DNA of 57,756 nt, taken from the sequence record OQ955832.1; one strand, written 5' to 3'. This stretch comes from Escherichia phage vB_EcoS_PJ16. This document shows positions 1 through 57,756 of the stretch, piece by piece. The notes under the pieces were generated by a model. The model saw only the letters and a program-made list of their open reading frames with translations, did no database searches and was not told the DNA's origin. Numbering within the stretch: the first letter of the stretch is position 1; each line of letters begins with the position of its first letter. Position numbers and translations under genes: made by a program.

Positions 1-206
1 TATCTTTTTATAGATAACATAGAAAACATAGATATAAAGAAGAAGTAGTATAGAAAGATAGAGATAGTACATATAGTGTATTAGCTGTAAATAGAGCTAA
101 AATAAAAGTCTGGGGGATACCTATTGTAATCTATGTTTTTATGCAAGTCTTTGAAATCATTGTGATTATGTGTTACGTATTTATGTATGTGATCGAAAAT
201 TAGTGC
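1..206. repeat. AT-rich non-coding repeat region (right half of hub A, continuing from the window end)
   Basis: No RBS-preceded ORF; short direct repeats (catagat, GCAYGTTGTG); positions 1-80 are homologous to 17749-17830. Confidence 0.6.
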
Positions 207-1493: not shown

Positions 1494-1540
1494 GTAATTT
1501 ACACTTCCCTGTGTAATCCGTCAAGAATTATTTTAAATTT
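1494..1540 (-). promoter_or_regulatory. sigma70-type promoter with UP element (conserved family)
   Basis: Minus strand: UP AT-tract, -35 TTGACG (1519-1524), 17-bp spacer, -10 TAAATT (1496-1501). Confidence 0.65.
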
Positions 1541-3768: not shown

Positions 3769-3815
3769 GAAGTCTATCTGATAATGTGTAAACCGTCAAG
3801 AATTATTTTAAACTG
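3769..3815 (-). promoter_or_regulatory. sigma70-type promoter with UP element (conserved family)
   Basis: -35 TTGACG (3794-3799), 17-bp spacer, -10 TAGACT (3771-3776), AT-rich UP element. Confidence 0.55.
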
Positions 3816-4441: not shown

Positions 4442-4741
4442 TATAACTACCGCCTGAATAGTGATGTTTACCACACAACGATCTACTTACACGTTTCACA
4501 CTTGGCCCCTTCAGCCTTGTCTATTCCACACTGCAAATATTCATTTTCTTTTTGTTCTAATGTTTTTCCACGACACAAACCAACAGTGGTACTTTCTGGT
4601 GTCATTTTATATTTCTGATAGTTTGCTTCCAGTTGTCGAACACGGTGATAGTGTGCCGGATACATTGTGCGTAACATGTGGATTTCACCACCTGTCACCC
4701 GTGGTAAACTGTATAGAACAGTTACAAACGGACCGATAACC

Positions 4742-9860: not shown

Positions 9861-10195
9861 AATTCTATAGCCTTTGTCAGATATGAATGTTTCAGAACTT
9901 CACAAATTGTGTCATAATATTCAAATGTAACAGCAATAGTGTCAGCCGTTCGCTGATAGAAAAGAAAACCCTGATCATCCAATTGTTCAAGTATTTCAAT
10001 TTCTTCACTTGAACAATTACCGGAAATTATTTTCCCACCATTCAATACACAGTGAAGAATGAAAGGTAATAAACGTAACTCATGTTTGGTTAACTCGCGT
10101 TTAGTTTTAAACTGATATAATTGTTTCAGTTCATCGGTAACCATTCCACGGTGTTCTGGTTTTACTGGTATTAACATGTTCATCACTCCTTTCAT
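9857..10195 (-). CDS. Hypothetical protein (112 aa)
   Basis: Track ORF. Confidence 0.5.
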   Translation of the reverse strand: MKGVMNMLIPVKPEHRGMVTDELKQLYQFKTKRELTKHELRLLPFILHCVLNGGKIISGNCSSEEIEILEQLDDQGFLFYQRTADTIAVTFEYYDTICEVLKHSYLTKAIEL

Positions 10196-10424
10196 TTATA
10201 ATAAAGTTCTTTTTCAAGCCTGATGATTTGTTCTTTCAACCACGAAAGTTCTAAAAGAGTTTGTTTACCCCACGCCATCACTTCGGCATACCGTTTACAC
10301 TCATAACTGTGTTTTTTACGCTCGTAACAAGTAAGATGTCGCTGATGGCATGTGCTATTTAAAAGGTGAAACCTTATATTTACACTAACGCTGTTTTCAA
10401 TTAAATCATCATTTATGCAATCGT

Positions 10425-10647: not shown

Positions 10648-10695
10648 AAAGCATAACTGCGTATCTGTAATCAGTCAAGAATTATTTTAACACCG
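10648..10695 (-). promoter_or_regulatory. sigma70-type promoter with UP element (conserved family)
   Basis: -35 TTGACT (10673-10678), -10 TATGCT-like, UP AATTATTTTAA. Confidence 0.5.
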
Positions 10696-10712
10696 TGCAA
10701 AAAAACCATCAC

Positions 10713-10721
10713 TGATATAAC
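10713..10721 (+). promoter_or_regulatory. Extended -10 element TGATATAAC (putative late promoter)
   Basis: TGnTATAAY without recognisable -35, about 40 nt upstream of portal start. Confidence 0.35.
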
Positions 10722-10760
10722 ATACGTTAAGAACCGTAAACCGTATGGAGCCTGTAGAAC

Positions 10761-12116
10761 ATGGCTGACCAACAATTCGAACAACTAGCCGTTGCCGGGT
10801 ACAGTCGAACAGGCAACCAGGTAAACGACGATTTTCTTCCTAAACTGAATGGTAAACAAGGCCGTCGTATTCTTCGTCAGATGGCTGAGAACGACGAAAC
10901 GATCGGTGGTGTACTGTTTGCTATGAGTAGCGTTTATCGTTCTGTACAGTGGATTTTTGACCCGTCTGACAAAGATGATCCAGAAGCTATCCGTTATTCA
11001 GAATGGTTACAGGATGCTATTGAAAATAAAATGGGTGATCCGCGTGGTGCACTCCCGGATGATACCTGGTCCGCGTTCGTTCAGACATGGACAGACGTTG
11101 ATGTATTCGGCTGGGGTTGGTATGACATCTGGGTCAAAGATCTTGATGACGGTACAGTGGGTATTGCCCGTCTGGTTCCTGTAGCACCTGAAACGCTTGC
11201 TGGCTGGGATATTGAAGAACCGACAGGTTATGTTCGTGGTATTTATCAATGTTCACCTAATCAGGGTACAACGACGTTAATCACACGTGACCGTTCGCTT
11301 CATTTGATTTCAAGTCCGAATAAAGGTAACCCGGAAGGTTTATCACTGCTGCGCACAGCTTATCGCCCGTGGTACTACAAAAAAGTGAATATGGAAATCG
11401 AATCCATACTTGCCGAACGTGGTACAGGGTTCCCGGTAATTACTGTCAACGCAGATATTAAGAAAGCGGCTAATGATCCTAATGTTCCTGAACAACAGCG
11501 TCAGGCAGCACAGGCGATGATTGATGACTATGAAAACATCGTCGCTAATATCAAACGCAATGAACAATCAGGACTGGTGATTTATTCTAAACCGTATATC
11601 ACGGGTTATGATAACGAAACAGGTGTTACTACGTACGGTGGTGAACAACAGGTGAAACTGGAATTCGTTACACCTAACCAGACCAGTTCTGTGGATATTG
11701 ACCGGACGATTAAACGCCTGGATACCAGTATTGCCCGTGCGTTACTGGCTGATTTTTTATTTTTTGGCAGTTCGGGTAATACAAGTAATGGTGCTAACCT
11801 GGGTAATCGTACTGAACTGTGGATCCGCGCAATGCAATCACGTATTGACAGCATTGTAGAATGTGTTAATCGTCAGTTGATACCGCAGTTATGGTCATTA
11901 AACGCATTTCCTGATGAATACCGCCCGTCGATTCGCGCCGGGTCGATCAGTAAAGACAGTATCGAGACGTTGACCACTGCACTTGCACGACTTGCACAAG
12001 CTGGTGCGCCTGTATTCCCGGATCCAGACCTTCAGGAATACGTGTATAAAGAGGCTGGTCTACCTATTACGGGGATTGATAAAGCCGGGGACGGATTACC
12101 GTCTATTGACGACTGA
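10761..12116 (+). CDS. Portal protein (putative)
   Basis: 451 aa; position and size between terminase and head morphogenesis gene; no motif confirmed. Confidence 0.5.
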   Translation: MADQQFEQLAVAGYSRTGNQVNDDFLPKLNGKQGRRILRQMAENDETIGGVLFAMSSVYRSVQWIFDPSDKDDPEAIRYSEWLQDAIENKMGDPRGALPDDTWSAFVQTWTDVDVFGWGWYDIWVKDLDDGTVGIARLVPVAPETLAGWDIEEPTGYVRGIYQCSPNQGTTTLITRDRSLHLISSPNKGNPEGLSLLRTAYRPWYYKKVNMEIESILAERGTGFPVITVNADIKKAANDPNVPEQQRQAAQAMIDDYENIVANIKRNEQSGLVIYSKPYITGYDNETGVTTYGGEQQVKLEFVTPNQTSSVDIDRTIKRLDTSIARALLADFLFFGSSGNTSNGANLGNRTELWIRAMQSRIDSIVECVNRQLIPQLWSLNAFPDEYRPSIRAGSISKDSIETLTTALARLAQAGAPVFPDPDLQEYVYKEAGLPITGIDKAGDGLPSIDD

Positions 12117-12869: not shown

Positions 12870-12916
12870 GTAGGTTACACATCCTTGTGCAATCCGTCAA
12901 GAATTATTTTAGATTA
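12870..12916 (-). promoter_or_regulatory. sigma70-type promoter with UP element (conserved family)
   Basis: -35 TTGACG (12895-12900), 17-bp spacer, -10 TAACCT; leader nearly identical to promoter at 27470. Confidence 0.55.
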
Positions 12917-13152
12917 TCATAGACAGGCGGTAAACCCATTGCGGCCTGTACAGACCGTTTTTCGTATTCCTCCCGAAGTTTCTGAAGCTGTTCAATACCG
13001 ATGTCACAACCACGCATTATATCAGCGCACAGGTCGTTGTAGGTCGCTTCAGATTGTTTGCTGTGTGGGTAATCAACACAGGATGGATCTGCAATAATGA
13101 CTTTCGGCAGATACGCGACAGTATCGCCCATTGCGTTTTTAAATATCGTCAT
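12904..13152 (-). CDS. Hypothetical protein (82 aa)
   Basis: Track ORF. Confidence 0.45.
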   Translation of the reverse strand: MTIFKNAMGDTVAYLPKVIIADPSCVDYPHSKQSEATYNDLCADIMRGCDIGIEQLQKLREEYEKRSVQAAMGLPPVYDNLK

Positions 13153-14010: not shown

Positions 14011-14058
14011 AAATGTTAGTGTTACTGCTTGCAATGTGTCAAGAATTATTTTAAACTT
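14011..14058 (-). promoter_or_regulatory. sigma70-type promoter with UP element (conserved family)
   Basis: -35 TTGACA (14037-14042), 18-bp spacer, -10 TAACAT (14013-14018). Confidence 0.55.
14029..14057 (+). promoter_or_regulatory. Putative divergent plus-strand promoter overlapping the minus-strand element
   Basis: TTGCAA-17 bp-TAAACT on plus strand; same arrangement recurs at 44612. Confidence 0.35.
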
Positions 14059-15245: not shown

Positions 15246-15254
15246 TGATATAAT
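15246..15254 (+). promoter_or_regulatory. Extended -10 element TGATATAAT (putative late promoter)
   Basis: TGnTATAAT with no clear -35, immediately upstream of hairpin and head gene. Confidence 0.4.
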
Positions 15255-15256
15255 CG

Positions 15257-15283
15257 GCCTCAGTGTGTTAACTGAGGCTTTTT
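15257..15283 (+). terminator. Hairpin plus T5 (terminator and/or RBS-sequestering leader)
   Basis: Stem gcctcag/ctgaggc; right arm contains the GAGG SD of the 15284 gene. Confidence 0.5.
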
Positions 15284-16243
15284 ATGGCTACTAAAGACCC
15301 ATACCCGGATATTTCAGACAAGTATGACGCTCGCATTCGCGAAGCACTTGACGTTGTGTGGGAAAACGTGCGTCGTAGTGAGTCGTTAGCCAACCTGGAA
15401 TACATCATTGAAACTCAGGGTATTGCCGGATTACTCCCCATTCTTGAAACACTCCCTGATGAACTTAGTGCACAGTTGCGCCCGGTTATTGAAGATGCGA
15501 TCGCCGAATCAGGTCGTGTAGTCGTTCAGGTTTTACCGAAAGCGGCTGTAACAGGTCCGGTTGTGTTTAGTCTGGTCACCCCACAGGTCAGCACATATAT
15601 CAACAACTATGTCGGACAACTGATCCGTGAAGTCAGTGACGAAACAGTCAAAGCTGTTCAGATTGCTGTTAACCAGGGTGTGGTAACCGGACGAAATCCG
15701 CGTCAGATAGCCCGTGATTTTCGATCGTCAATAGGGTTAACCACACGGCAGGAAATGACGGTTCAACGTCTGCGATCAGCACTGGAAAAAGGTGAAGCAG
15801 GTTATGTGAACAGTCTGACCACTGTTACAGACAGTGGGAAGAACGCTGTAAGTGCCGGGAAACTATCACAGGCGAAGATTGACCAGATAATCGAACAGAC
15901 ACGCTTGCGTTACGTAAAACAGCGTACAGAGACAATAGCGCGTACTGAATCACTTCGTGCTGTATCAGTTGGTCAGGATCAGGCAATACGTCAGGGACAG
16001 ATTACCGGGGCTATTAGTAATGAATTGCTGAAGCGCTGGTTATACAGAAAGGATGGTCGGACACGTGATGCGCATATTTCCACGGGTGAAACGAATGGCT
16101 GGATACCAATGAACAGACCGTTTTCAACGCCGTTAGGACCACTTATGTTTCCTCGTGATCCTAACGGTAGTGCAGCGAATGTGATTAATTGCCGTTGCCG
16201 GGTACAGTACAGTTTGCCGGAAGATATAGGTTCGTTGGGTTAA
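15284..16243 (+). CDS. Head morphogenesis protein (Mu F / SPP1 gp7-like, putative)
   Basis: 319 aa; position after portal; C-terminal region resembles minor head protein family. Confidence 0.55.
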   Translation: MATKDPYPDISDKYDARIREALDVVWENVRRSESLANLEYIIETQGIAGLLPILETLPDELSAQLRPVIEDAIAESGRVVVQVLPKAAVTGPVVFSLVTPQVSTYINNYVGQLIREVSDETVKAVQIAVNQGVVTGRNPRQIARDFRSSIGLTTRQEMTVQRLRSALEKGEAGYVNSLTTVTDSGKNAVSAGKLSQAKIDQIIEQTRLRYVKQRTETIARTESLRAVSVGQDQAIRQGQITGAISNELLKRWLYRKDGRTRDAHISTGETNGWIPMNRPFSTPLGPLMFPRDPNGSAANVINCRCRVQYSLPEDIGSLG

Positions 16244-17545: not shown

Positions 17546-17592
17546 ACAGGGTAGTTGTGTCGGTGTAATTTGTCAAGAATTATTTTAAAGAT
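17546..17592 (-). promoter_or_regulatory. sigma70-type promoter with UP element (conserved family), left arm of divergent pair
   Basis: -35 TTGACA (17571-17576), 17-bp spacer, TACCCT; inverted copy of promoter at 17898. Confidence 0.55.
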
Positions 17593-17880
17593 ACAGCTAA
17601 TACAGAACGTGTACTAACTGCACATATTTCTACATAGGTTTCATGATTTTGAGTTGCAGCTAATACAGAACGTGTATTAGTAGATCATAGATTCATAGAT
17701 TTCGTCATGTTTATTTTTTAACCAACCTCTCTCTATCTTATTCTTTTTATTATCTTTTTATAATAAAAAGATAATAAACATAATAAACATAGATAAATAG
17801 AAGAGTAGTATAAGTAGTATAAGTTGCTGCAAGTAGGAGAGGTTTAAAAGGTATAGGGAGTCGCATACTTCCCATGAATC
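17581..17880. repeat. AT-rich non-coding repeat hub B
   Basis: No ORFs; direct repeats cagctaatacagaacgtgta x2, catagat repeats; homologous to window-end/start region. Confidence 0.65.
17746..17778. repeat. Perfect palindrome (16-bp arms, 1-nt centre)
   Basis: tttttattatctttttat a ataaaaagataataaaa read directly; core TTATCT...AGATAA also present at window junction. Confidence 0.8.
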
Positions 17881-17928
17881 TATACGTAAAATAATTCTTG
17901 ACGGATTACACCGACACAAATACCCTGT
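17880..17928 (+). promoter_or_regulatory. sigma70-type promoter with UP element (conserved family), right arm of divergent pair
   Basis: TAAAATAATTCTTGACGGATTACACC; -35 17898-17903, TACCCT at 17921-17926. Confidence 0.55.
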
Positions 17929-17956: not shown

Positions 17957-18304
17957 ATGAATCCGAACATCAGAGTTGCTACAGACGAATTCATTCGTCG
18001 CGCCCGTAAAGTTCACGGTGATCGTTACGACTACTCATTCAGCATTGTTGAAGATAGTTCCAGCACAGTGGTTATTATTGACTGTGAAACTAACACAGTG
18101 TTTTTCCAGGTTGTCGCTGAACATCTGGACGGTGTTGAACCAGTAACGACTGCTGTTGAACCAGTAACGACTGCTGTTGAATCGATCAAGAATCTTTCTG
18201 AGACATTCGGTAACGTTGCAAACAGCGTGTATCACCAGTGCAATTATTCATCTGAAATGTTAGAATTTAGTCATGTTGAAACAATACGAGGACAATCCCC
18301 GTGA
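17957..18304 (+). CDS. Hypothetical protein with degenerate zinc-ribbon-like N-domain and VEPVTTA repeat
   Basis: Track ORF 17927-18304 trimmed to ATG 17957; DEFIRRARKVHGDRYDYS matches N-domain of 26624-27235 protein but lacks Cys ligands. Confidence 0.45.
   Translation: MNPNIRVATDEFIRRARKVHGDRYDYSFSIVEDSSSTVVIIDCETNTVFFQVVAEHLDGVEPVTTAVEPVTTAVESIKNLSETFGNVANSVYHQCNYSSEMLEFSHVETIRGQSP
18134..18175 (+). repeat. 21-bp tandem repeat x2 (in-frame, VEPVTTA)
   Basis: gttgaaccagtaacgactgct repeated exactly. Confidence 0.8.
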
Positions 18305-21403: not shown

Positions 21404-21423
21404 TAACAACTGTGGTATTATTA

Positions 21424-21451
21424 AGGGGTGGCTTATGCTGCCCCTTTTTTT
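21424..21451 (+). terminator. Rho-independent terminator
   Basis: GC stem ggggtggc...gctgcccc then T7. Confidence 0.65.
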
Positions 21452-21466
21452 CATGAGGTTAAAATC

Positions 21467-21820
21467 ATGCGTAATTCATATGATCCGTCACTGAAATATG
21501 TTTTCACCCGTCCGATGCTGTGGAATGGTAAACAGATGTCCGCTGGCGATAAAGTATCAACATCAAAAGCTATCCCGGCTGTTTTAAATGCCCTTGTGCG
21601 TATGCGCCACATTGAACCAGCTACTGCGACCGTTGAAGAACCAGTGACTGTAGCAACCGAAGAATCGGTATCAACCACAGCTGCTGAAATCCGACGTGAC
21701 GCGCCAAAAACCTATAACGTTTATGTTATGGGTATGCCGATGAATTCAGAATCATTCAGCAGTAAAAGTGCCGCTGCTGAATGGTGTGAATCTCAAGGCT
21801 TGACATATAACTATTCTTGA
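21467..21820 (+). CDS. Hypothetical protein (117 aa)
   Basis: Track ORF 21428-21820 trimmed to ATG 21467 with GAGG RBS. Confidence 0.45.
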   Translation: MRNSYDPSLKYVFTRPMLWNGKQMSAGDKVSTSKAIPAVLNALVRMRHIEPATATVEEPVTVATEESVSTTAAEIRRDAPKTYNVYVMGMPMNSESFSSKSAAAEWCESQGLTYNYS

Positions 21821-22573
21821 CCTATTGTTAGTTGTAGATAGTTTTCGTGGCGACTTTGCGGACTTTTTAGAAACTGACCACAAAGATAAATGCAAACGAA
21901 GAACGTTTTCTGATGGCGGCGTAATAGCCTGTAAGTCAGCAAGGTCTTCCGATTCCTTGTAAATAAATTCGGCGCACTGGCCCGGTGTGATTAATAATGG
22001 GCACCCACGAATGAGAGTATTGTGATTGATCGTCGTTCTTGCGCGCAAAGTCTGCTCGAAGACAGTATTCTCATTCGTGGGTAACAACGGGCGTGTCGCC
22101 TTAGTAAATCCCTCAAGGGTGCAGCGAATAATCCGGTAATGTCGTTGCCGTAAGCCGCACGAAACGTGGCACACAACAGGTAAGAGCATTTGGTCAATGC
22201 GAAGTTATTCGCGCAGACGTAAGGCCTAATTGTCGGCAGTGCTCTTATCGTTGTGGTGAATTGCAGTTCTCAGAAACAACCAGAAGATAAGCGTCTGGCA
22301 CCACAACACAAACACTCGCTGATAAGGAGGTGATCCTTATCTTGCTGGCGGGAAAGCCGCAAATCGTGGGTAAAGCATGTTGTGAAACATCCTGAACTGC
22401 GTGTCGTTTTACATAACTGGTTATTCACGTGTCACGCATAGGGGTATGTTGGGACGTCAGGTGTGGATGACCAGTTATGTAAAACCCTCATTATCACCCA
22501 GAGCCATTTGCCGTCTGTTTAAGACGGCTTTTTTCGTGCTAATATAACGAAAACATTTCTCACAGGTGATCAC
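21821..22573. other. ORF-free structured intergenic region (about 750 bp)
   Basis: All plus frames closed; minus ORFs lack RBS; long hairpins, palindromes and a terminator at its 3' end. Confidence 0.6.
22510..22534 (+). terminator. Rho-independent terminator
   Basis: Stem gccgtct/agacggc then T6. Confidence 0.7.
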
Positions 22574-26623: not shown

Positions 26624-27235
26624 TTAATGATAGACCTTGTGTACCTCTTGTTCCAGTTTATACGCGTCGGCGCCTTGTGGGAACGGATACGACACGAGTT
26701 TAACCACGGGGTGTGGAGTTCGTCGTTGTAGTTGTCGTAGTCGCTGTTTTAAGTCGTTTGTAATACCAACTTTAAGCAGAGTAGGACACTGTTTATCGTC
26801 AGTTAACACGTAGAGCGTTCCGTGTTCTGACGGGTTAAAACCTGTTTCAGCGCACTGGGGGCAACCTTGTTTCATTGAAGTGTGATTGTTCGGAGTCTGT
26901 TCAAACACACCGTGTTCTGAACAAATGATTTTCACAGGAGTACACCGATTAACATACTCCACCAACGAATAGTCGTAACGGTCCCCGTGAACTTCACGGG
27001 CGCGTGTAATAAACTCTTCTGTGGTTAAACGTTGTTGCTTAACTGCACATTGGGGACAACCTCTCCCGCGAACATGATTATTAGGAATCTGTTCAAACAC
27101 ACCATGTTCAGGACAGGTGATCTTCACAGGAGTACACCAATTCACATACACCACTAGCGAGTAATCGTATTTGTGCCCATGAACTTCACGGGCACGTGTG
27201 ATAAATTCTTCTGTGGTTAAACGTTTCCTACTCAT
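26624..27235 (-). CDS. T5orf172 (GIY-YIG-like) domain protein with duplicated zinc-ribbon domains
   Basis: Two tandem copies of EEFITRAREVHG-YDYS...GCPQCA; C-terminal GTLYVLTDD...KVGIT...EQEVH resembles T5orf172 domain. Confidence 0.55.
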   Translation of the reverse strand: MSRKRLTTEEFITRAREVHGHKYDYSLVVYVNWCTPVKITCPEHGVFEQIPNNHVRGRGCPQCAVKQQRLTTEEFITRAREVHGDRYDYSLVEYVNRCTPVKIICSEHGVFEQTPNNHTSMKQGCPQCAETGFNPSEHGTLYVLTDDKQCPTLLKVGITNDLKQRLRQLQRRTPHPVVKLVSYPFPQGADAYKLEQEVHKVYH

Positions 27236-27236
27236 C

Positions 27237-27416
27237 TTATTTGTCGCTTTTTAACACAGCCCAGATTAACGCACCTAACCAACCGACGAATGTCCAACCC
27301 GCAAAGATGTTAAGTAAAATAATTGCTGTTTGTTGTTTATGTTTAATGTTAATCGCGATGAGTGCTGGGATCAGATATACAGCAGCGATTAAGAAAAGAA
27401 TGATGAAAGTAGCCAT
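27237..27416 (-). CDS. Small membrane protein, superinfection-immunity-like (59 aa)
   Basis: Not in track; strong RBS GGAGGG; NIFAGWTFVGWLGALIWAV resembles Imm-type motif. Confidence 0.45.
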   Translation of the reverse strand: MATFIILFLIAAVYLIPALIAINIKHKQQTAIILLNIFAGWTFVGWLGALIWAVLKSDK

Positions 27417-27444: not shown

Positions 27445-27492
27445 GTAGGTTACACGTCTTTGTGTAATCCGTCAAGAATTATTTTAAACGTT
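27445..27492 (-). promoter_or_regulatory. sigma70-type promoter with UP element (conserved family)
   Basis: -35 TTGACG (27470-27475), 17-bp spacer, TAACCT; leader paralogous to 12895 promoter. Confidence 0.55.
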
Positions 27493-27550
27493 TGTCGCTT
27501 TTTAGACCCGTGTTAAACTGTGTACATGCTTCGTGAAAAGGTTAACCACA

Positions 27551-34001: not shown

Positions 34002-36037
34002 ATCAATCCATAAATGGCATTGTGTATTACGACACCCCCAACAACAGAGGAAACATTGAAATTAATTTCAGCTTTGTAAGCTCCTGGTGGAACACAATCT
34101 ACCAAAGCATAAAAATTGAACGTGCCTCCTGCTGAGATGTTATATCCCATGGAGTCCGCGACAGCATTTCCTTGTTGGTCAAGGAACCTAAGTGACGCCA
34201 GGGTGGTTGTTGTATTTTTAGCCCAAAAACCAAGCTGAAAATAACGACCTGGCTCACAATCAATGATTGTTTGGGTGAAATTAGCTGCTGCGTCAGATGA
34301 TGGTACAGATAAAACAAAAGAAGTTGAAAACATTAAATCATTAGGAACATCGTTTGTTGTAGTAGCAGTGACAACTCCTGTTCCAGTTTGCGAGAGTGTC
34401 CAGTTAGATATGTTTAAAAACTGTCCTGAGCCATTACTGATGCTATTAATATAAGGGCTTACAATGCTCCCTAAATTCCAGTTACTTGTGATAAATCCTG
34501 CCCGTGGATAGCACCCTCTGGACATTACTTTTTTGCTCGCGCCACCTATCAACTGTCTTGTGGGAAATCCGGTAGCAATCGTTGTATTCCCATAGAGGGG
34601 TAACGAGCAATTATTTAGGCTAACAACCCCATCGCCGTTGCTAACAATAGGTACACTGGTATACCCGTCTGGGAGTAGTATCGTCGAATTACTGACGGTT
34701 AATCGTGAACTGCCATCCACAGTAAACCCAACGAAACTCTGACCAGGTTGGTACTCAATGTTACCGTTTGTGAAAACCACTGTTGCGTTATCTGATAACG
34801 CAACAGTAGGGTCAAAATATCCTGATTTTTTACCTGCCGGTAGAGAGCAGCTATCGAATATAAATTGACCATTAACAAACGTGAAAGGTCCACCGTTGTC
34901 AACCATCCAGCAGTGATTAAATTTTATAACCTCACCGGAATTCGCTGGTGAATTGAAAATAGCAGAATTTGTAAAACTTCTGGACAACGCGCATTTATCA
35001 AAAAGAATACGATATGCATTATCAAGAAACTCAATTCCGGCAGTTGAGATAAACCCACTATTAGATATTCTTAACTCTGATACTACACCACTGGTAGAGC
35101 CACCGATAGCCAATTTCCTGGAACCTTTTCCGACGAATGACACACCACTCATCAAAGCAGTTGCGTTAACTGCATCTCTGTTAATGTAATCCGCGCCTGT
35201 ATTAATAATGGTTAGGTAGTAGTCACCGGTTACAGATGCAGTTTCTGTTAAAGTACATTTATTTTTTCCAATAAGTGCGCCTTTTGCTATGTCGAAAATA
35301 ATCGGTGTTGTTATCTCACCAGAAACAGGAACCACACAGTCAAATCCGGCAGCGTTTATTTTGTTGATGAATACCGCCAAATCTTCGGTTCCAGTATAAC
35401 CAGCATCATACACGTCCACGGTGCCGTTGAAGAATTTTCTTTTCCATACCACACCGTTTCCGGGGAAGGTAACAATATTGTCTACAGTAGTAGTCGCGCT
35501 AACAGCTACCATAATACCACCACCAAAATTAAACCCGCTCACATACGAATCAAGAATTATGGAATCACCAATTGATCCTGATATCGATGATAACTCAGAA
35601 ACTGATGATACAGTCCCTATATAAGACAAACCATTTGATTTGTTTAAATCAGAACGTAACATTAAATCCGTCTGATTAACCCAGTGTGTAGCATCAATAC
35701 CACCCGTAGTTGCAGGTGTTGAACCAGGTGGAACAATTTTAGGCAACATACCCATCCACTGGTAATAATTACCTTCTGATTCATATAGTAGTGTTTCCCA
35801 ACGATGGTTAATAGTACTACCGCCTTCAAACGAACCGTCTGCAGGTTTAAAACCAACTGAACTAAAAAAACCATCCAGTGTTTTGTTAGTAACTGATTCG
35901 CCACGGATTGTATCGGTTGCTTCCAGTGCAGGTTTACCGGTAGCGTCACGACTTTTTGCAACGTGTTCAATATGTAAAATCGCTTGTTTGCCTGTTTTCA
36001 AATCATCAGCACTGATATAATCGTTACAGTTAGCCAT
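33998..36037 (-). CDS. Tailspike / receptor-binding protein with beta-helix-like repeats
   Basis: Track ORF 33998-36064 trimmed to ATG 36037 (GGAG RBS); Gly/Ser/Thr/Asn-rich repetitive beta-strand pattern. Confidence 0.6.
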   Translation of the reverse strand: MANCNDYISADDLKTGKQAILHIEHVAKSRDATGKPALEATDTIRGESVTNKTLDGFFSSVGFKPADGSFEGGSTINHRWETLLYESEGNYYQWMGMLPKIVPPGSTPATTGGIDATHWVNQTDLMLRSDLNKSNGLSYIGTVSSVSELSSISGSIGDSIILDSYVSGFNFGGGIMVAVSATTTVDNIVTFPGNGVVWKRKFFNGTVDVYDAGYTGTEDLAVFINKINAAGFDCVVPVSGEITTPIIFDIAKGALIGKNKCTLTETASVTGDYYLTIINTGADYINRDAVNATALMSGVSFVGKGSRKLAIGGSTSGVVSELRISNSGFISTAGIEFLDNAYRILFDKCALSRSFTNSAIFNSPANSGEVIKFNHCWMVDNGGPFTFVNGQFIFDSCSLPAGKKSGYFDPTVALSDNATVVFTNGNIEYQPGQSFVGFTVDGSSRLTVSNSTILLPDGYTSVPIVSNGDGVVSLNNCSLPLYGNTTIATGFPTRQLIGGASKKVMSRGCYPRAGFITSNWNLGSIVSPYINSISNGSGQFLNISNWTLSQTGTGVVTATTTNDVPNDLMFSTSFVLSVPSSDAAANFTQTIIDCEPGRYFQLGFWAKNTTTTLASLRFLDQQGNAVADSMGYNISAGGTFNFYALVDCVPPGAYKAEINFNVSSVVGGVVIHNAIYGLI
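36013..36021 (+). promoter_or_regulatory. Extended -10 element TGATATAAT (putative late promoter for lysis cassette)
   Basis: Third copy of TGATATAAY motif, 43 nt upstream of 36064 ATG, embedded in tailspike 5' end. Confidence 0.35.
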
Positions 36038-36063
36038 CTTTAAGTCTCCAGGAGTGTAGAACA

Positions 36064-36387
36064 ATGTCTGATAACCCAGTGTTGAGGTATTGGCCTATAA
36101 TAGCATTTGTTGCCACGGGGTTGGTAGGTTACGGGGTAACTCAAAACCAAATCAATTCTAATGAAAAAGATATTGCAGATGCAAAAACCTATGCGCATGA
36201 GGCGCTTAATCTGGCAAAGCGAGTGGAATCCCGAGTGGATGTCCACGACATCAAAATCGAATATCAGGCAACACAGAACGCTGAAATCCTCACCAGTGTT
36301 AAAGAGCTAACACAGTCAACAAATGACCTGAAAGTTGTTATTGAAGGTTTGAAAGCGGAACAACGTAAAACCGGGAGTAAGCAATGA
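36064..36387 (+). CDS. Membrane protein with N-terminal TM helix and coiled coil (lysis-associated, putative)
   Basis: 107 aa; AGGAG RBS; first gene of lysis cassette. Confidence 0.5.
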   Translation: MSDNPVLRYWPIIAFVATGLVGYGVTQNQINSNEKDIADAKTYAHEALNLAKRVESRVDVHDIKIEYQATQNAEILTSVKELTQSTNDLKVVIEGLKAEQRKTGSKQ

Positions 36388-37703: not shown

Positions 37704-38144
37704 TTACTCCAGTGAATAGATTGTAATTTCGCAATCAATGTTGTTCAATTTTTCATAAATCAAAGGTCTGACTACTGACCATGATAAACCACCATTTGAA
37801 CAACCTAATCGTGGTAATGAAACTGAACGTATTTTAAAGTGTCTGATGACTTTTATAAGATCGTCCAAACCATATTCAATCCATTGTAATTGTGAAGGAT
37901 TACACCAATGCTCTTTAGTTGGAAAATTAATAATTATCTGATTGTTTTCAGATGTGACAAACATTTTTCCAACTTTTACATGGTGTTGTTCACACGCTTT
38001 TCGGTACTGTTTAAAATTGTCAGGAAAGGTTCTTTTAAACGCTAAAGCAATACCTTTACCCATTACACCAACGCAATTCACCGTGTTTACTAGAGCATGT
38101 GAATTGCTTTTAAGAAGGTCCCCCGTGACTTCTATTACTGACAT
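37704..38144 (-). CDS. Macrodomain protein, TARG1/DarG-like
   Basis: GDLLxxNSHALVNTVNCVGVMGKGIALAFK and PRLGCSNGGLSW resemble TARG1-type macrodomain signature. Confidence 0.7.
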   Translation of the reverse strand: MSVIEVTGDLLKSNSHALVNTVNCVGVMGKGIALAFKRTFPDNFKQYRKACEQHHVKVGKMFVTSENNQIIINFPTKEHWCNPSQLQWIEYGLDDLIKVIRHFKIRSVSLPRLGCSNGGLSWSVVRPLIYEKLNNIDCEITIYSLE

Positions 38145-38649
38145 AACAATAACTCCTGTACGCTTGTCGTTTTATTTTCTGATAGTCGGAAACTTTTACA
38201 GATCTCGTTTTACATTCACCGATACGATATGGGTCGAAAACAAACATCACCTGTGAACGGTCATTTCCTCCTGCTGGTAACCTGGTGTCAGGATCTACAA
38301 ACGCTATACGACCTTTAAACACCCATAGTTCCGAACAATGTGTCAGTGCTTTGTGAAACCAGTCTGCAGACGTCATAGCGTTCACGAGTAATAACGAACC
38401 AGTTCCTTGATGAACAGTGGTTATTATTTTATTAACCCATGGAGACGGATCGCTGTATGGTGGATTACACCAGACGAACCCACCACCATTACTTTGAACA
38501 ATCGAATTCCAGTCTTTATTCAGACTATCAGTGATAAACAACGAACATTTAGCGTTAGAACCATCGGTACACACATCAAGAACAAGTGGGAATTCACGAG
38601 AAACGTTATCAATAAAATCCCACGGTGTTTCCCAGTTGTCTTTAGCCAT
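38110..38649 (-). CDS. DNA N6-adenine methyltransferase (phage Dam type)
   Basis: Track ORF 38110-38766 trimmed to ATG 38649 (GGAGAG RBS); WETPWDF, VLDVCTD, NPPY motifs. Confidence 0.7.
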   Translation of the reverse strand: MAKDNWETPWDFIDNVSREFPLVLDVCTDGSNAKCSLFITDSLNKDWNSIVQSNGGGFVWCNPPYSDPSPWVNKIITTVHQGTGSLLLVNAMTSADWFHKALTHCSELWVFKGRIAFVDPDTRLPAGGNDRSQVMFVFDPYRIGECKTRSVKVSDYQKIKRQAYRSYCYVSNRSHGGPS

Positions 38650-38995
38650 GTTCCGGTACGCTCTCCACGCTGTAATAAACGGGGATACCCAGACGTTCAG
38701 CTTCTGCAATTTCCGCAATAGTCCCGGACGAACGACGATAATCAGGAAGCACCAGAACAGCGTCACAGCGGCGCATAATTTCTAACGTGCCTGACAGGTA
38801 GTATTCAGGTTGTATATTGCGTAAACCTCCGTCAAAGTCCCACAATTCGGTGTTCTTGTGAGGGATAACAGGGAACCACCCCGGACGTTGTAAAGCAAGT
38901 CGTTTACCTGCCTGTTCAGCGCGTGACACGTTACGGGATGTTTTAAGCGCACAGTCAGCACGATAAGGCCCGGCAATGTAACAGAGTTTAATCAT
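38642..38995 (-). CDS. Nucleoside 2-deoxyribosyltransferase-like protein
   Basis: Track ORF 38642-39085 trimmed to ATG 38995; IAGPY start and DAVLVLPDYRRSSGTIAEIAEAERLGIPV resemble the fold signature. Confidence 0.5.
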   Translation of the reverse strand: MIKLCYIAGPYRADCALKTSRNVSRAEQAGKRLALQRPGWFPVIPHKNTELWDFDGGLRNIQPEYYLSGTLEIMRRCDAVLVLPDYRRSSGTIAEIAEAERLGIPVYYSVESVPEHG

Positions 38996-44531: not shown

Positions 44532-44578
44532 TAACTTTAAAAGGTGTTGTGTAATCTGTCAAGAATTATTTTACACTC
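44532..44578 (-). promoter_or_regulatory. sigma70-type promoter with UP element (conserved family)
   Basis: -35 TTGACA (44557-44562), 17-bp spacer, -10 TAAAGT (44534-44539). Confidence 0.6.
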
Positions 44579-44593
44579 ACCTTTCGTTGATGC

Positions 44594-44641
44594 AGATGTT
44601 AGAGGAATAAGTTGCAATGCGTCAAGAACTATTTTAAACTT
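44594..44641 (-). promoter_or_regulatory. sigma70-type promoter with UP element (conserved family), tandem second copy
   Basis: -35 TTGACG (44620-44625), 18-bp spacer, -10 TAACAT. Confidence 0.55.
44612..44640 (+). promoter_or_regulatory. Putative divergent plus-strand promoter
   Basis: TTGCAA-17 bp-TAAACT; 37 nt upstream of helicase GTG start. Confidence 0.4.
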
Positions 44642-50529: not shown

Positions 50530-50577
50530 GGACGTGTAAAATAATTCTTGACGAATTACAGATATGTGCGCTATAGT
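50530..50577 (+). promoter_or_regulatory. sigma70-type promoter with UP element (conserved family)
   Basis: TAAAATAATTCTTGACGAATTACA; -35 50548-50553, -10 TATAGT 50572-50577. Confidence 0.55.
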
Positions 50578-51905: not shown

Positions 51906-52297
51906 TAATAGTCGTTACAGGCGGTCGTGACTTCAACGACAGAACAGCGGTATTTTCAGCATTAGGGTTACTTCACAAACAATTCCCGGTTACCGAACTG
52001 ATTGAAGGCGGTGCATCAGGTGTTGATAACCTGTGTAAGCAATGGGCGCAATTACACGGTATTCCTGTACGTAGTTGCCCGGCAGCATGGGACGATCTGA
52101 CTGTACCAGGTGCGGTTGTAAAACAGGGTAAGCATGGGCCTTATAACGCTGTTGCAGGTCATCAACGTAATCAGGCAATGTTAGAGGGTGAACCACGCCC
52201 TACATACGGTGTTGTGTTCCCCGGTGGGCGTGGTACTGCCGACATGCATCGTCGTATGTTGAAAGCTGGTTTAACTGTGTGGGTTCCATATCCTTAA
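51902..52297 (+). CDS. SLOG/LOG-like Rossmann-fold protein (DUF2493-like)
   Basis: VVTGGRDF, GGASGVD and PGGRGTADM motifs. Confidence 0.5.
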   Translation: MIIVVTGGRDFNDRTAVFSALGLLHKQFPVTELIEGGASGVDNLCKQWAQLHGIPVRSCPAAWDDLTVPGAVVKQGKHGPYNAVAGHQRNQAMLEGEPRPTYGVVFPGGRGTADMHRRMLKAGLTVWVPYP

Positions 52298-52334
52298 AAT
52301 AATTCTTGACAGATTACCAACCTCCCCCGATAAT
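52290..52334 (+). promoter_or_regulatory. sigma70-type promoter with UP element (conserved family)
   Basis: TAAAATAATTCTTGACAGATTACC; -35 52306-52311, 17-bp spacer, -10 GATAAT 52329-52334. Confidence 0.6.
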
Positions 52335-52368: not shown

Positions 52369-53136
52369 ATGGCTAACATTAACTCCCTTCGCAAGCTGTC
52401 TGATACCGATAAAACCAACGTAAAACGTGGTAATGCGTATCGTATTGATCCGCGTATTATCAAGATTCGTCCAGGACATAACCCACGCGGTGTGTTTACC
52501 GACAACTACTGGGAAACTGAAGCAGCACTGGCACACATTGAAAACTTTCGTCAGGCTTATACTAACGGCGATTTCGTTCCACCCATCGTGGTACAGGTTG
52601 TTGACGGTGTTCCGTATGTCCAGGATGGTGAGCATCGTTTACGTGGTGTATTGGCAGCTATTGACGCCGGGACGCCGATTCTGACAGTAGACGTTGTTGA
52701 ATCGTCCGGTGACGAACTACAACAGACCCTGACACTGTTAAAAGGTAATGAAGGTAAACCGTGGTCCCCTGTTGAACGTGCTGTTATTTACGGTCGTTTC
52801 CGTTCATATGGCATGAGTGTTGAGCAGATCGCTACACAGGTCGGTAAAACCGTTCAGCACGTTTACGAACAACTGAATATTCTTGATATGCCGCTGGAAC
52901 TTAAACGTCGTATTCAGAACGGCGAAATCAGCGCGTCAGCAGCCATTCGCCAGTTTAAAGCAGGTGATAAAGAACCAGTAGTAACGCGTCGTCCGCCTGC
53001 TAAACTGGTACGGTCTGCAGTGGAAGCAATCCGTGGTGAATGGTCTGTAACCCGTTCGGAAGGTGGTAAAGTCCTGGTTGAACTTACCGCTGAACAGTTT
53101 GAAGCGTTAAAAGCACTGAAGGAGCACCAGTTATGA
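52369..53136 (+). CDS. ParB-like nuclease domain protein
   Basis: KIRPGHNPRG and DGEHRLRGVLAA resemble ParB/sulfiredoxin N-domain motifs. Confidence 0.65.
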   Translation: MANINSLRKLSDTDKTNVKRGNAYRIDPRIIKIRPGHNPRGVFTDNYWETEAALAHIENFRQAYTNGDFVPPIVVQVVDGVPYVQDGEHRLRGVLAAIDAGTPILTVDVVESSGDELQQTLTLLKGNEGKPWSPVERAVIYGRFRSYGMSVEQIATQVGKTVQHVYEQLNILDMPLELKRRIQNGEISASAAIRQFKAGDKEPVVTRRPPAKLVRSAVEAIRGEWSVTRSEGGKVLVELTAEQFEALKALKEHQL

Positions 53137-54946: not shown

Positions 54947-55270
54947 ATGACTGTATATGAAATGGAAGGTTTTCTTCGTGGTAAATGTGTTCCGGGTGAT
55001 CTGAAAGTTAACGAAACAAACGCTGAATATCTTGTCCGTAAGTTCGGTGAACTTGAAAATAAATGTGCGGCGCTGGCTGAGGAGAATGTTCGACTTAAGT
55101 CAGGTATAGCTGGCCTGATACATCTCGGTATTCGATACGCAGATGTTGATGTAATGAAAATTGCTGGAGATGCACAGCTTTCTACCCCATGCACTGATGA
55201 CATCATAAACAGCATTATCCAAAAAGAAACCAGTGATAAACGTGCACAAGCACAAAATGTTCCCTCGTAA
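54947..55270 (+). CDS. Hypothetical protein (107 aa)
   Basis: Track ORF. Confidence 0.45.
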   Translation: MTVYEMEGFLRGKCVPGDLKVNETNAEYLVRKFGELENKCAALAEENVRLKSGIAGLIHLGIRYADVDVMKIAGDAQLSTPCTDDIINSIIQKETSDKRAQAQNVPS

Positions 55271-55499
55271 CGGTTTGAAGTGGTCCGCACGAGATCTGGC
55301 GTTATTAAAAATTAATGCAGGAAAGATCAGTGCGGATGAAATAGCGTATTACCTTCGCCGGGACGTTGAAGCGGTACACATTAAAGCGTCACGTCTCGGT
55401 ATATCACTGGTAACCAATAAATGTAAACGTGGTCATGCGCGAGTTTACAAAAAAGGTAGATGGCGCTGTCCTGAGTGTAGAAAATTAAAAGGGTATTAA
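55257..55499 (+). CDS. Hypothetical zinc-finger protein
   Basis: Track ORF 55233-55499 trimmed to ATG; C-terminal CKRGH...CPEC. Confidence 0.4.
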   Translation: MFPRNGLKWSARDLALLKINAGKISADEIAYYLRRDVEAVHIKASRLGISLVTNKCKRGHARVYKKGRWRCPECRKLKGY

Positions 55500-57475: not shown

Positions 57476-57756
57476 CCCTCCTTATTCAACCACGGGTAAA
57501 GCATAACTCGTGTTGGCAGCTAGTGCAAGATGTGCTTTATATGTTAGTGTATTTACACCTAATGCATGTTGTGCTTTAGCAGCTAGTGCAAGATGCACGT
57601 TGTGTATTAGCTGTTAGTGCACGTTGTGTATCTATGTTGGTACAGCTAATGCACGTTGTGAATTATATAGTGCATATAGTGCATTAAAGTTATACTTAAC
57701 ATAGATTTCGTCATGTTTATTTTTTGATCAACCCCTCATTATCTTTTTATAGATAA
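57476..57756. repeat. AT-rich non-coding repeat region (left half of hub A)
   Basis: Direct repeats GCACGTTGTG x3 plus variants, agctagtgcaagatg x2; 57700-57756 homologous to 17690-17760. Confidence 0.65.
57498..57530 (-). promoter_or_regulatory. Putative sigma70 promoter for 56672-57475 gene
   Basis: Minus strand TTGCAC-17 bp-TATGCT followed by leader ACCCGTGGTT similar to hub B promoters. Confidence 0.4.

What the first reader, a model, noticed from the sequence alone, without database searches (positions are those of the whole stretch)
10713..10721. Second promoter class: -35-less extended -10 TGATATAAY upstream of late gene blocks
TGATATAA(T/C) occurs just upstream of the portal gene (10713), the head morphogenesis gene (15246) and the lysis cassette (36013, inside the tailspike 5' end). 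The absence of a -35 element suggests activator-dependent late transcription. No obvious sigma or activator gene was recognised, so the factor may be among the unknown early proteins.
Basis: partly seen in the sequence, partly recalled or inferred. Interest (0 to 1): 0.5.

Follow-up and report, generated by a model that had tools for sequence, protein, structure and literature searches.

The report
Extended -10 late promoters, 9NA-like phage
Three copies of TGATATAAT/C in front of the portal, head-assembly and lysis genes of this 9NA-like phage are conserved promoter-like signals of a well-known type that host RNA polymerase can use without a -35 box or a helper protein, and they belong to a larger set of such signals in front of most late genes.

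Summary
The window is a 9NA-like (Sashavirus/Nonanavirus) siphophage. TGATATAAY occurs 6 times against about 1 expected. They are kept at the same places in 9NA, Sasha, AVIO78A, Carvaje and IMG/VR relatives. Two of the other three hits are not conserved in homologous DNA, and the third could not be judged. The motif is a textbook extended -10 element (TGnTATAAT). TG and the key hexamer positions are fixed while the "n" and weak hexamer positions drift. Inside the tailspike coding sequence, its three synonymous positions are invariant while neighbouring codons vary. No -35 and no shared upstream motif is present.

In total, 8 of 11 late units carry a TGnTAnnnT element 27-60 nt upstream of the start codon. 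These include TerL, the head operon, the connector/tail operon, tape measure and tailspike.

The inference that a missing -35 implies an activator is not supported. Extended -10 promoters are the classic -35-independent class. The early genes use a different, very uniform UP-plus-35 promoter (12 copies). This two-class layout resembles Thermus phage P23-45. No regulator was identified. The finding is an ordinary new member of a known kind.

The parts
10713..10721 (+). TGATATAAC, candidate extended -10 promoter of the portal gene (ATG 10761). The predicted start of transcription is about 10728-10729. An alternative register is GTGCAA (10695-10700), 17 nt, TAACAT (10718-10723).
   Evidence: CTGATATAACATAYGTTAAGAA is conserved in 15 of 16 relatives, while the 12 nt upstream vary. 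L015 has TGTTAAACT at the same place.
15246..15254 (+). TGATATAAT, a perfect extended -10, 29 nt before the head-morphogenesis ATG (15284)
   Evidence: It is conserved in all relatives, with informative variants: TGGTATAAT in L006 (the n position is free) and TGATACAAT in the Carvaje group. The upstream flank is unrelated between clades.
15256..15283 (+). Terminator-like hairpin GGCCTCAGT/ACTGAGGCT plus a T run. It starts 2 nt after the -10, and its 3' arm contains the Shine-Dalgarno GAGG of the head-morphogenesis gene.
   Evidence: Listed as terminator-like. Read-through RNA folds at -20.4 kcal/mol (z = -4.1), while RNA starting at 15262 folds at only -4.2 kcal/mol. The stem is invariant and the loop variable across 9 sequences.
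36013..36021 (+). TGATATAAT, a perfect extended -10, 42 nt before the holin ATG (36064). It is embedded in tailspike codons D-Y-I-S on the minus strand.
   Evidence: It is invariant in 13 sequences. The three synonymous positions of GAT-TAT-ATC never vary, although 17 of 24 neighbouring codons do.
36097..36105 (-). TGCTATTAT, candidate extended -10 promoter of the tailspike gene (ATG 36037, minus strand). It lies inside the holin coding sequence, face to face with the holin promoter.
   Evidence: Relatives have TGTTATAAT (Sasha) or TGTTATGAT (9NA, Carvaje, L018-L022) at the same position.
4702..4710 (+). TGGTAAACT, candidate extended -10 promoter of the large terminase gene (ATG 4742)
   Evidence: It is identical in all five full genomes, 30-31 nt from the ATG, while the upstream DNA differs.
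18258..18266 (+). TGTTAGAAT, candidate extended -10 promoter of the protease/scaffold/major-capsid operon (start 18301)
   Evidence: 9NA, Sasha and Carvaje have TGATATTAT, TGATATCAT and TGATACTAT at the equivalent distance (32 nt) in otherwise unrelated upstream sequence.
21413..21446 (+). TGGTATTAT (21413-21421) directly followed by the terminator hairpin after the major capsid gene (21423-21446). This is a second promoter-terminator overlap, ahead of the plus-strand gene starting at 21467.
   Evidence: Relatives have TGATATCAT (Sasha), TGGTATCAT (AVIO78A) and TGGTAACAT (9NA). The TG is absent in Carvaje.
22537..22545 (+). TGCTAATAT, candidate extended -10 promoter of the connector/tail-tube operon (ATG 22574), just after terminator 22510-22528
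   Evidence: 9NA has TGATAGAAT and Carvaje TGCTAAAAT, at the same 28-29 nt distance.
27511..27519 (+). TGTTAAACT, candidate extended -10 promoter of the tape-measure/tail-tip operon (ATG about 27551)
   Evidence: It is conserved in AVIO78A and Sasha. 9NA carries the same TGTTAAACT in front of its major tail gene, where a minus-strand gene interrupts the operon.
10113..10121 (+). TGATATAAT inside a minus-strand ORF; probably a chance match
   Evidence: Homologous DNA in L012 and L013 reads AAGGTAAAATGC at this place.
13016..13024 (-). TGATATAAT inside minus-strand ORF 12904-13152; probably a chance match
   Evidence: It varies at synonymous positions in 11 of 12 homologous sequences.
10673..10689 (-). 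One of 12 copies of the other (early-type) promoter element, TAAAATAATTC-TTGAC. It points away from the portal gene, and its upstream part overlaps the upstream part of the portal promoter.

Best explanation
The three TGATATAAY sites are extended -10 promoters (TGnTATAAT) read by the host sigma-70 RNA polymerase. The TG dinucleotide and the near-consensus -10 hexamer supply the binding energy that a -35 box normally gives. Transcription of the portal gene, the head-morphogenesis gene and the lysis cassette can therefore start about 7 nt downstream (near 10728, 15261-15263 and 36028) without a -35 element and without a DNA-bound activator.

These sites are the closest-to-consensus members of a wider set of TGnTAnnnT promoters. 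That set sits 27-60 nt upstream of most late transcription units of 9NA-like phages. Each unit needs its own promoter because the late genes are broken up by terminators and by opposite-strand gene blocks.

At the head-morphogenesis gene, and again after the major capsid gene, the -10 lies 1-2 nt upstream of a terminator hairpin. Transcripts coming from upstream would stop there. Transcripts started at this promoter begin inside the 5' arm, cannot form the hairpin, and leave the ribosome-binding site free.

Shown here: position, conservation, selection on the DNA, absence of a -35 and of any upstream motif, and enrichment at late units. Inferred: use by sigma-70 holoenzyme, the exact start sites, late timing, and the terminator bypass.
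For: - Motif excess: 6 against 0.99 expected.
- The three sites are kept at orthologous positions across two to three genera, with portal protein identity down to 83%.
- Substitutions follow promoter logic. TG, T-12 and A-11 are fixed, and T-7 is fixed except at the portal site (C). The n varies (TGA/TGG at head-morphogenesis; TGC/TGT at tailspike; TGT/TGA at the head operon). Hexamer positions 3-5 drift.
- Inside the tailspike gene, the three synonymous positions covered by the motif are invariant, while 17 of 24 nearby codons vary. The hypergeometric probability is about 0.02.
- In L015 the portal site is replaced by a different extended -10 (TGTTAAACT) at the same place.
- 8 of 11 late-unit first genes have a TGn plus hexamer candidate (log-odds at least 4) at -80 to -15, against 12 of 86 other genes (Fisher p about 1e-4) and 4.3% of random windows.
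- The best -35 matches are 3-4 of 6, as at random positions, and there is no shared upstream column.
- Hairpin energetics are given. The second promoter-terminator overlap is shown.
- Extended -10 promoters act without sigma region 4 or a -35 contact (PMC3950348).
Against: - There are no transcript data for any 9NA-like phage in the searchable literature, so start sites and timing are inferred.
- The portal hexamer ends in C at -7 (TATAAC), normally a damaging position. It scores low (1.9), and GTGCAA-17-TAACAT is an alternative reading.
- The genome-wide count of generic TGNTATAAT is not above chance.
- The late-unit classification and the score threshold were chosen after looking at the data.
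- The stem next to the head-morphogenesis site is invariant, so there is no compensatory change to prove the structure.
- ATATAAT upstream of a hairpin could partly be the A-tract of a terminator.
- TerS has only a weak TG-containing element and the tail-chaperone unit has no convincing one.
Confidence: 0.7

Rival explanations
1. These are activator-dependent late promoters. A phage early protein binds near or upstream of the -10, or replaces -35 recognition, and is required for transcription, as with Mu C, P2 Ogr, P1 Lpa or T4 MotA/AsiA.
For: There is no -35. The genes served are virion and lysis genes. Dozens of small early proteins have no recognisable function. An 88-aa protein (55233-55499) looks, by eye only, like a helix-turn-helix plus zinc ribbon and has no Pfam match. 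A ParB-HTH protein is encoded at 52369-53136.
Against: Two of the three sites are perfect TGnTATAAT, which suffices for sigma-70 holoenzyme alone (PMC3950348). No motif is shared upstream of the -10 among 8 late candidates. At the head-morphogenesis site, the sequence more than about 7 nt upstream of TG is unrelated between clades while the element is kept. No activator, sigma or AsiA family was found. Known activator-dependent late promoters typically have a poor core element or a conserved activator box, and neither is seen here.
Confidence: 0.12
2. These are the same extended -10 promoters, but timing is set by a negative switch. An unidentified small early protein displaces or masks sigma region 4, the beta-flap or the alpha C-terminal domain. 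This shuts the UP-plus-35-dependent early promoters and host promoters, and leaves RNA polymerase free for the -35-independent late promoters, as Thermus phage P23-45 gp39 and T4 AsiA do.
For: The phage has two sharply different promoter types. One is 12 near-identical TAAAATAATTC-TTGAC elements, mostly in front of minus-strand and replication blocks. The other is TGnTAnnnT elements in front of 8 of 11 late units. There is direct precedent for this layout and mechanism (PMC3950348). The early and portal promoters are back to back with overlapping upstream regions.
Against: No homologue of AsiA, gp39 or any RNA-polymerase-binding family was detected. Timing of these genes has not been measured. 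One early-type element (17887, plus strand) also points into the head operon. Gene dosage after replication, or simple promoter competition, could give late expression without any factor.
Confidence: 0.3
3. The sites are not promoters. The 9-mer recurs by chance, because of protein-coding constraint (lysis site), or as the A-rich tract of an intrinsic terminator (head-morphogenesis site).
For: Three of the six exact hits look like chance. Generic TGNTATAAT is not enriched genome-wide. The lysis site is inside a conserved tailspike N-terminus. ATATAAT pairs with the U run in the predicted read-through fold.
Against: Synonymous positions in the motif are frozen while their neighbours vary. TG is conserved although a terminator A-tract does not need it. 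The same architecture recurs at 8 late units with conserved spacing to the start codon. In L015 the element was replaced by a different extended -10.
Confidence: 0.08

Closest known systems
Extended -10 (TGn) sigma-70 promoters of E. coli and its phages (galP1 type; Mitchell et al. 2003, as cited in PMC3950348)
   Same: TG lies one base upstream of a near-consensus -10 hexamer. There is no recognisable -35. The n position is free and TG is fixed across relatives.
   Different: Activity and start sites have not been measured here. The portal copy has C at -7. Two copies abut a terminator hairpin, so the predicted start lies inside the stem.
Thermus phage P23-45 middle/late promoters with gp39 (and T4 AsiA) as the specificity switch (PMC3950348)
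   Same: The same two-class layout is seen: -10/-35-type promoters for one gene set and -35-less extended -10 promoters for later or structural genes, all read by the host polymerase.
   Different: No gp39- or AsiA-like protein was found. The host is an enterobacterium. The early class here also carries a fixed AT-rich UP-like tract and a conserved GATTACAC spacer. The switch itself is hypothetical.
Activator-dependent phage late promoters (Mu C at Plys/PI/PP/Pmom, PMC4461284 and PMC2582627; P2 Ogr and P1 Lpa from my own knowledge)
   Same: A recognisable -10, no typical -35, and a position in front of late morphogenesis and lysis genes.
   Different: Those promoters carry a conserved activator-binding sequence around -22 to -55 and need the activator. 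Here no upstream motif is shared or conserved, and the core element is already consensus with TG.
T4 late promoters (TATAAATA, gp55/gp33/gp45; PMC2988020)
   Same: An AT-rich -10-only element with no -35.
   Different: The sequence is TGATATAAT/C, not TATAAATA. The TG is conserved. No gp55-like sigma was found.

Membership tests
Extended -10 sigma-70 promoter | TG at -15/-14, exactly one base upstream of the -10 hexamer | tested here: met
   All three sites have it. TG is invariant in orthologues while the intervening base varies.
Extended -10 sigma-70 promoter | -10 hexamer close to TATAAT, with T-12, A-11 and T-7 | tested here: inconclusive
   15246 and 36013 are perfect TATAAT. 10713 is TATAAC, with C at -7 conserved in 15 of 16 genomes. 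An alternative register, TAACAT, restores T-7 but loses the TG spacing.
Extended -10 sigma-70 promoter | No functional -35 hexamer at 16-18 nt | tested here: met
   The best match is 3-4 of 6 at any 15-19 nt spacing, equal to the mode for 20,000 random positions. The -35 zone is not conserved at the head-morphogenesis site.
Extended -10 sigma-70 promoter | Open-complex formation and initiation by sigma-70 holoenzyme independent of sigma region 4, starting 6-8 nt after the hexamer | not testable with these tools
   This needs in vitro transcription or 5'-end mapping. No transcript data were found.
Activator-dependent phage late promoter (Mu C, P2 Ogr, P1 Lpa, T4 MotA types) | A conserved activator-binding sequence upstream of or overlapping the -35 zone, shared by the late promoters | tested here: not met
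   No column from -50 to -1 relative to TG is shared among the 8 candidates aligned (one of them was entered a few bases out of register). The upstream flank is unrelated between clades at the head-morphogenesis site.
Activator-dependent phage late promoter (Mu C, P2 Ogr, P1 Lpa, T4 MotA types) | A cognate activator gene in the phage | tested here: inconclusive
   Pfam and PHROGs scans of about 80 proteins found none. Many small proteins remain uncharacterised.
T4-type late promoter | TATAAATA at -10 and a gp55-like sigma | tested here: not met
   The sites read TGATATAAT/C. No sigma family was detected.
P23-45-like two-class promoter scheme | -10/-35-type promoters for early genes and extended -10 promoters for middle/late genes | tested here: met
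   There are 12 TAAAATAATTC-TTGAC elements and TGnTAnnnT at 8 of 11 late units. The temporal classes are inferred from gene function only.
P23-45-like two-class promoter scheme | A phage protein that binds RNA polymerase (beta-flap or sigma region 4) and blocks -35-dependent initiation | not testable with these tools
   No homologue was found by profile search. A non-homologous analogue can only be found by pull-down or biochemistry.

The most novel reading that the evidence does not exclude
9NA-like enterobacterial siphophages run a P23-45/T4-AsiA-style programme. A very uniform UP-plus-35 promoter family drives early genes. A -35-independent extended -10 family drives every late unit. A still unidentified small early protein, with no sequence similarity to AsiA or gp39, disables sigma region 4, the beta-flap or alpha-CTD contacts to switch the host polymerase between the two. 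In addition, promoters placed so that transcription starts inside a terminator stem act as built-in insulators. They stop early read-through and let late transcripts pass.
Probability: 0.25. Interest if true: 0.55.

Novelty: new member of a known kind. Interest (0 to 1): 0.33.

Why it matters
The result gives a testable transcription map for an understudied phage group: 9NA, Sasha and the E. coli isolates AVIO78A, Bas82 and PDP46. It assigns about 12 early-type promoters and at least 8 extended -10 promoters to the late units. It corrects a common mis-inference that a missing -35 means an activator is needed. If the two-class layout reflects a real temporal switch, these phages should encode a new RNA-polymerase-binding protein that works on E. 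coli or Salmonella polymerase. Such a protein would be directly accessible to genetics and biochemistry. The promoter-inside-terminator arrangement is a compact design that could be reused in synthetic constructs. None of this changes current concepts, because the promoter type and the switching logic are already known.

Tried and rejected
- The generic TTGACA-N16-18-TATAAT scan of the whole window gave counts equal to shuffles, so it was not useful for either class.
- Genome-wide counts of TGNTATAAT and TGNTAWWMT are at most weakly enriched. I did not use count as the main argument.
- I looked for a shared upstream (activator) motif by aligning 8 late candidates on TG and found none. In that alignment the g22574 row was entered a few bases out of register.
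- PHROGs on 20 early proteins returned only 'unknown function' families.
- Pfam on about 70 proteins found no sigma, anti-sigma, AsiA or late-activator family.
- The 9NA-like genomics paper (Zeng et al. 2019) could not be read by DOI or PMC id. I cannot say whether these promoters were already noted there.
- The T5 gpT5.026 paper has no extended -10 link.
- The AVIO78A paper and record annotate only TTGACA/TATAAT-type promoters.
- Covariation in the head-morphogenesis hairpin cannot be tested, because the stem is invariant.
- The 5' leaders of the portal, holin and tailspike transcripts show no unusual structure.
- The 54810 site could only be compared with a 94%-identical genome.

Full report
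**Identity of the window.** The sequence is a complete 9NA-like siphophage genome. It is about 96% identical over long stretches to Escherichia phages PDP46, AVIO78A and KarinMuster_Bas82, and to Sashavirus isolates. It is about 83% identical to Salmonella phage 9NA. Its first and last 17 bases are identical, as expected for a circularly closed assembly.

Gene order follows AVIO78A, 9NA, Sasha and Carvaje. Virion and lysis genes lie on the plus strand. They are repeatedly interrupted by terminators and by blocks of small minus-strand genes. The late genes therefore cannot be served by one promoter.

**Observation.** TGATATAAY occurs six times against 0.99 expected, and none of 100 shuffles reached six.

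- 10713-10721 lies 39 nt before the portal ATG.
- 15246-15254 lies 29 nt before the head-morphogenesis ATG.
- 36013-36021 lies 42 nt before the holin ATG, inside codons 6-9 of the minus-strand tailspike gene, whose ATG is at 36037.

10113 and 13016 lie in coding sequence and are not kept in homologous DNA of relatives. 54810 is antisense within a gene and could only be compared with a 94%-identical genome. I treat these three as probably chance matches.

**Conservation.** I compared full or near-full genomes of AVIO78A, 9NA, Carvaje (a different genus) and Sasha. I also used 19 IMG/VR loci retrieved with the portal and holin proteins, not with the motif itself.

- *Portal site.* CTGATATAACATAYGTTAAGAA is kept in 15 of 16 genomes, while the 12 nt just upstream differ between clades. 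In the most distant relative (L015) it is replaced by a different element of the same kind, TGTTAAACT, at the same place.
- *Head-morphogenesis site.* This is TGATATAAT in most genomes, TGGTATAAT in L006 and TGATACAAT in the Carvaje group. The DNA more than about 7 nt upstream belongs to unrelated genes in different clades.
- *Lysis site.* This is invariant in 13 sequences. It overlaps the tailspike codons GAT-TAT-ATC, whose three synonymous positions never change, although 17 of the 24 surrounding codons vary. The chance that three pre-specified codons are all among the 7 invariant ones is about 0.02. So there is selection on the DNA itself, not only on the protein.

**What the motif is.** TG-n-TATAAT is the consensus extended -10 promoter. 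The pattern of change in relatives is the one expected for such a promoter. TG, T-12 and A-11 are fixed, and T-7 is fixed except at the portal site. The n is free, and hexamer positions 3-5 drift.

The best -35 match at spacings of 15-19 nt is 3-4 of 6, which is the commonest value at random positions. The description '-35-less extended -10' therefore holds.

There is one reservation. The portal hexamer is TATAAC, with a conserved C at the normally critical -7 position. A second register, GTGCAA (10695-10700), 17 nt, TAACAT (10718-10723), is also conserved. That would be a weak ordinary promoter. The two readings cannot be separated without mapping the start.

Alignment of the regions upstream of every late unit in five genomes shows a TGnTAnnnT element at a conserved distance from the start codon:

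| Late unit | Element in the window | Variants in relatives |
|---|---|---|
| TerL | TGGTAAACT, 4702 | identical in all five genomes |
| Protease/scaffold/capsid operon | TGTTAGAAT, 18258 | TGATATTAT, TGATATCAT, TGATACTAT in 9NA, Sasha, Carvaje |
| Gene after the capsid gene | TGGTATTAT, 21413 | TGATATCAT in Sasha |
| Connector/tail-tube operon | TGCTAATAT, 22537 | TGATAGAAT in 9NA, TGCTAAAAT in Carvaje |
| Tape-measure operon | TGTTAAACT, 27511 | same in AVIO78A and Sasha |
| Tailspike (minus strand) | TGCTATTAT, 36097-36105 | TGTTATAAT in Sasha, TGTTATGAT elsewhere |

Where 9NA has a minus-strand gene inserted before its major tail gene, a new TGTTAAACT appears in front of that gene.

I scored TGn plus the hexamer with a simple log-odds table, built from frequencies I recalled and used only as a ranking device. 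By this score, 8 of 11 late-unit first genes have a candidate of at least 4 in the -80 to -15 window. The comparison values are 12 of 86 other genes (Fisher p about 1e-4) and 4.3% of random windows. The unit list and threshold were set after looking at the data, so the p-values are indicative only. TerS has only a weak version (TGGGAAACT, 288-296), and the tail-chaperone unit has none.

**The other promoter class.** Twelve near-identical copies of TAAAATAATTC-TTGAC(G/A)-(G)ATTACA(C) occur against 0.18 expected. Each has an AT-rich UP-like tract, a consensus -35 and a -10 at 17-18 nt. Nine point into minus-strand blocks, including the DNA polymerase block. Three point rightwards (17887, 50537, 52295). 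The phage thus has two clearly different promoter designs.

**Mechanism.** The best-supported reading is that the TGATATAAY sites are ordinary sigma-70 extended -10 promoters. Recognition runs through sigma domains 2 and 3 and does not depend on sigma region 4 (PMC3950348).

Three results argue against a DNA-bound activator:
- No motif is shared upstream of TG.
- The upstream DNA at the head-morphogenesis site is unrelated between clades.
- The core elements are already consensus.

Pfam and PHROGs scans of about 80 proteins found no sigma factor, anti-sigma factor, AsiA or late activator. Small uncharacterised proteins abound, so this result is weak.

If late timing is actively controlled, the closest precedent is negative switching. 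P23-45 gp39 and T4 AsiA block -10/-35 promoters and spare extended -10 promoters, which drive the P23-45 middle and late genes. I give that about 0.3 here. Promoter competition, or gene dosage after replication, are simpler alternatives.

**Local anatomy worth recording.**

1. At the head-morphogenesis gene, the -10 ends at 15254 and a 9-bp hairpin with a T run starts at 15256. Its 3' arm holds the Shine-Dalgarno GAGG, and the ATG follows at 15284.
   - RNA reading through from upstream folds at -20.4 kcal/mol (z = -4.1).
   - RNA starting at the predicted start (about 15262) folds at only -4.2 kcal/mol.
   - So upstream transcripts should terminate or have the ribosome site sequestered, while transcripts from this promoter should not.
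   - The same juxtaposition recurs after the major capsid gene (21413-21446), with the TG element kept in four of five genomes.
   - This bypass is an inference. The stem is invariant, so no covariation test is possible.
2. The holin and tailspike promoters face each other. The predicted starts, at about 36028 (+) and about 36090 (-), give the two mRNAs roughly 60 nt of complementary 5' ends, covering both ribosome sites. I did not find unusual structure in either leader.

**Comparison and novelty.** The sites meet the sequence criteria for extended -10 promoters. They fail the criteria for activator-box late promoters (Mu C, P2 Ogr, P1 Lpa, T4 MotA) and for T4 late promoters.

I found no transcript mapping, and no mention of extended -10 promoters, for this phage group in the searchable literature. 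The main 9NA-like genomics paper could not be read, so prior description cannot be excluded.

The finding is a new member of a known kind.

Noticed in passing
window 1520-1535, 3795-3810, 10674-10689, 12896-12911, 14038-14053, 17572-17587, 17887-17902, 27471-27486, 44558-44573, 44621-44636, 50537-50552, 52295-52310: There are twelve near-identical copies of TAAAATAATTC-TTGAC(G/A)-GATTACAC (0.18 expected). Each has an AT-rich UP-like tract, a consensus -35 and an unusually conserved spacer start. Nine point leftwards and three rightwards. This is probably the early promoter family. The conserved GATTACAC after the -35 is not explained by sigma-70 contacts.
   Followed up: partly
window 14028-14058 and 44611-44641: Read on the opposite strand, the same element gives TTGCAA, 17 nt, TAAACT. 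At 44611-44641 this lies about 30 nt before the helicase/primase block, which otherwise has no promoter. The element may therefore fire in both directions.
   Followed up: no
window 36013-36105: The holin (+) and tailspike (-) extended -10 elements face each other. The predicted starts would give the two mRNAs about 60 nt of complementary 5' ends, spanning both Shine-Dalgarno sites and both start codons.
   Followed up: partly
window 21413-21446: This is a second case of an extended -10 (TGGTATTAT) abutting a terminator hairpin, after the major capsid gene. It is conserved in AVIO78A, 9NA and Sasha. The plus-strand ORF starting at 21467 (117 aa) is probably the real gene here, rather than the minus-strand ORFs.
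   Followed up: partly
window 57699-57756 plus 1-55, and 17693-17812: An AT-rich non-coding module of about 120 nt (CATAGATTTCGTCATGTTTATTTTTT...AACATAGATA...GTAGTATA) is present twice at 78% identity: once upstream of TerS and once upstream of the head operon. Both copies are flanked by short repeats. Its function is unknown; it could be an origin, a packaging site or a promoter context.
   Followed up: partly
window 57521-57684; 77-256; 17584-17679: Iteron-like direct repeats are present: TAGTGCACGTTGTG-type (6 copies), TGTATTARCTGTAAA (3 copies), and CAGCTAATACAGAACGTGTA (2 copies, which also match the first set in inverted orientation).
   Followed up: no
window 1-17 and 57740-57756: The first and last 17 bases are identical (TATCTTTTTATAGATAA), suggesting an overlap left by circular assembly rather than true genome ends.
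   Followed up: no
window 37704-38144, 38110-38766, 27237-27416, 26624-27235: The minus-strand blocks encode a Macro-domain protein, a Dam-type methyltransferase, a superinfection-immunity (Imm) protein and a T5orf172/GIY-YIG-like protein.
   Followed up: no
window 52306-52334 and 52369-53136: The best consensus sigma-70 promoter in the window (TTGACA-17-GATAAT, 11 of 12) precedes a 255-aa protein with a ParB-type HTH domain. This protein is a possible DNA-binding regulator.
   Followed up: no
window 55233-55499: This 88-aa ORF has no Pfam match. By eye, its sequence (WSARDLALL...ISADEIAYYLRRDVEAVHIKASRLG, then CKRGH...CPEC) looks like a helix-turn-helix followed by a zinc ribbon. It is a candidate regulator, and this reading is untested.
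   Followed up: no
window 10747-10763 and 36050-36066: The portal and holin genes share a very similar translation-initiation region: GGAGCCTGTAGAACATG against GGAGTGTAGAACAATG.
   Followed up: no
window 10196-10424: This 229-nt stretch inside a minus-strand gene block has no ORF of 40 aa or more.
   Followed up: no
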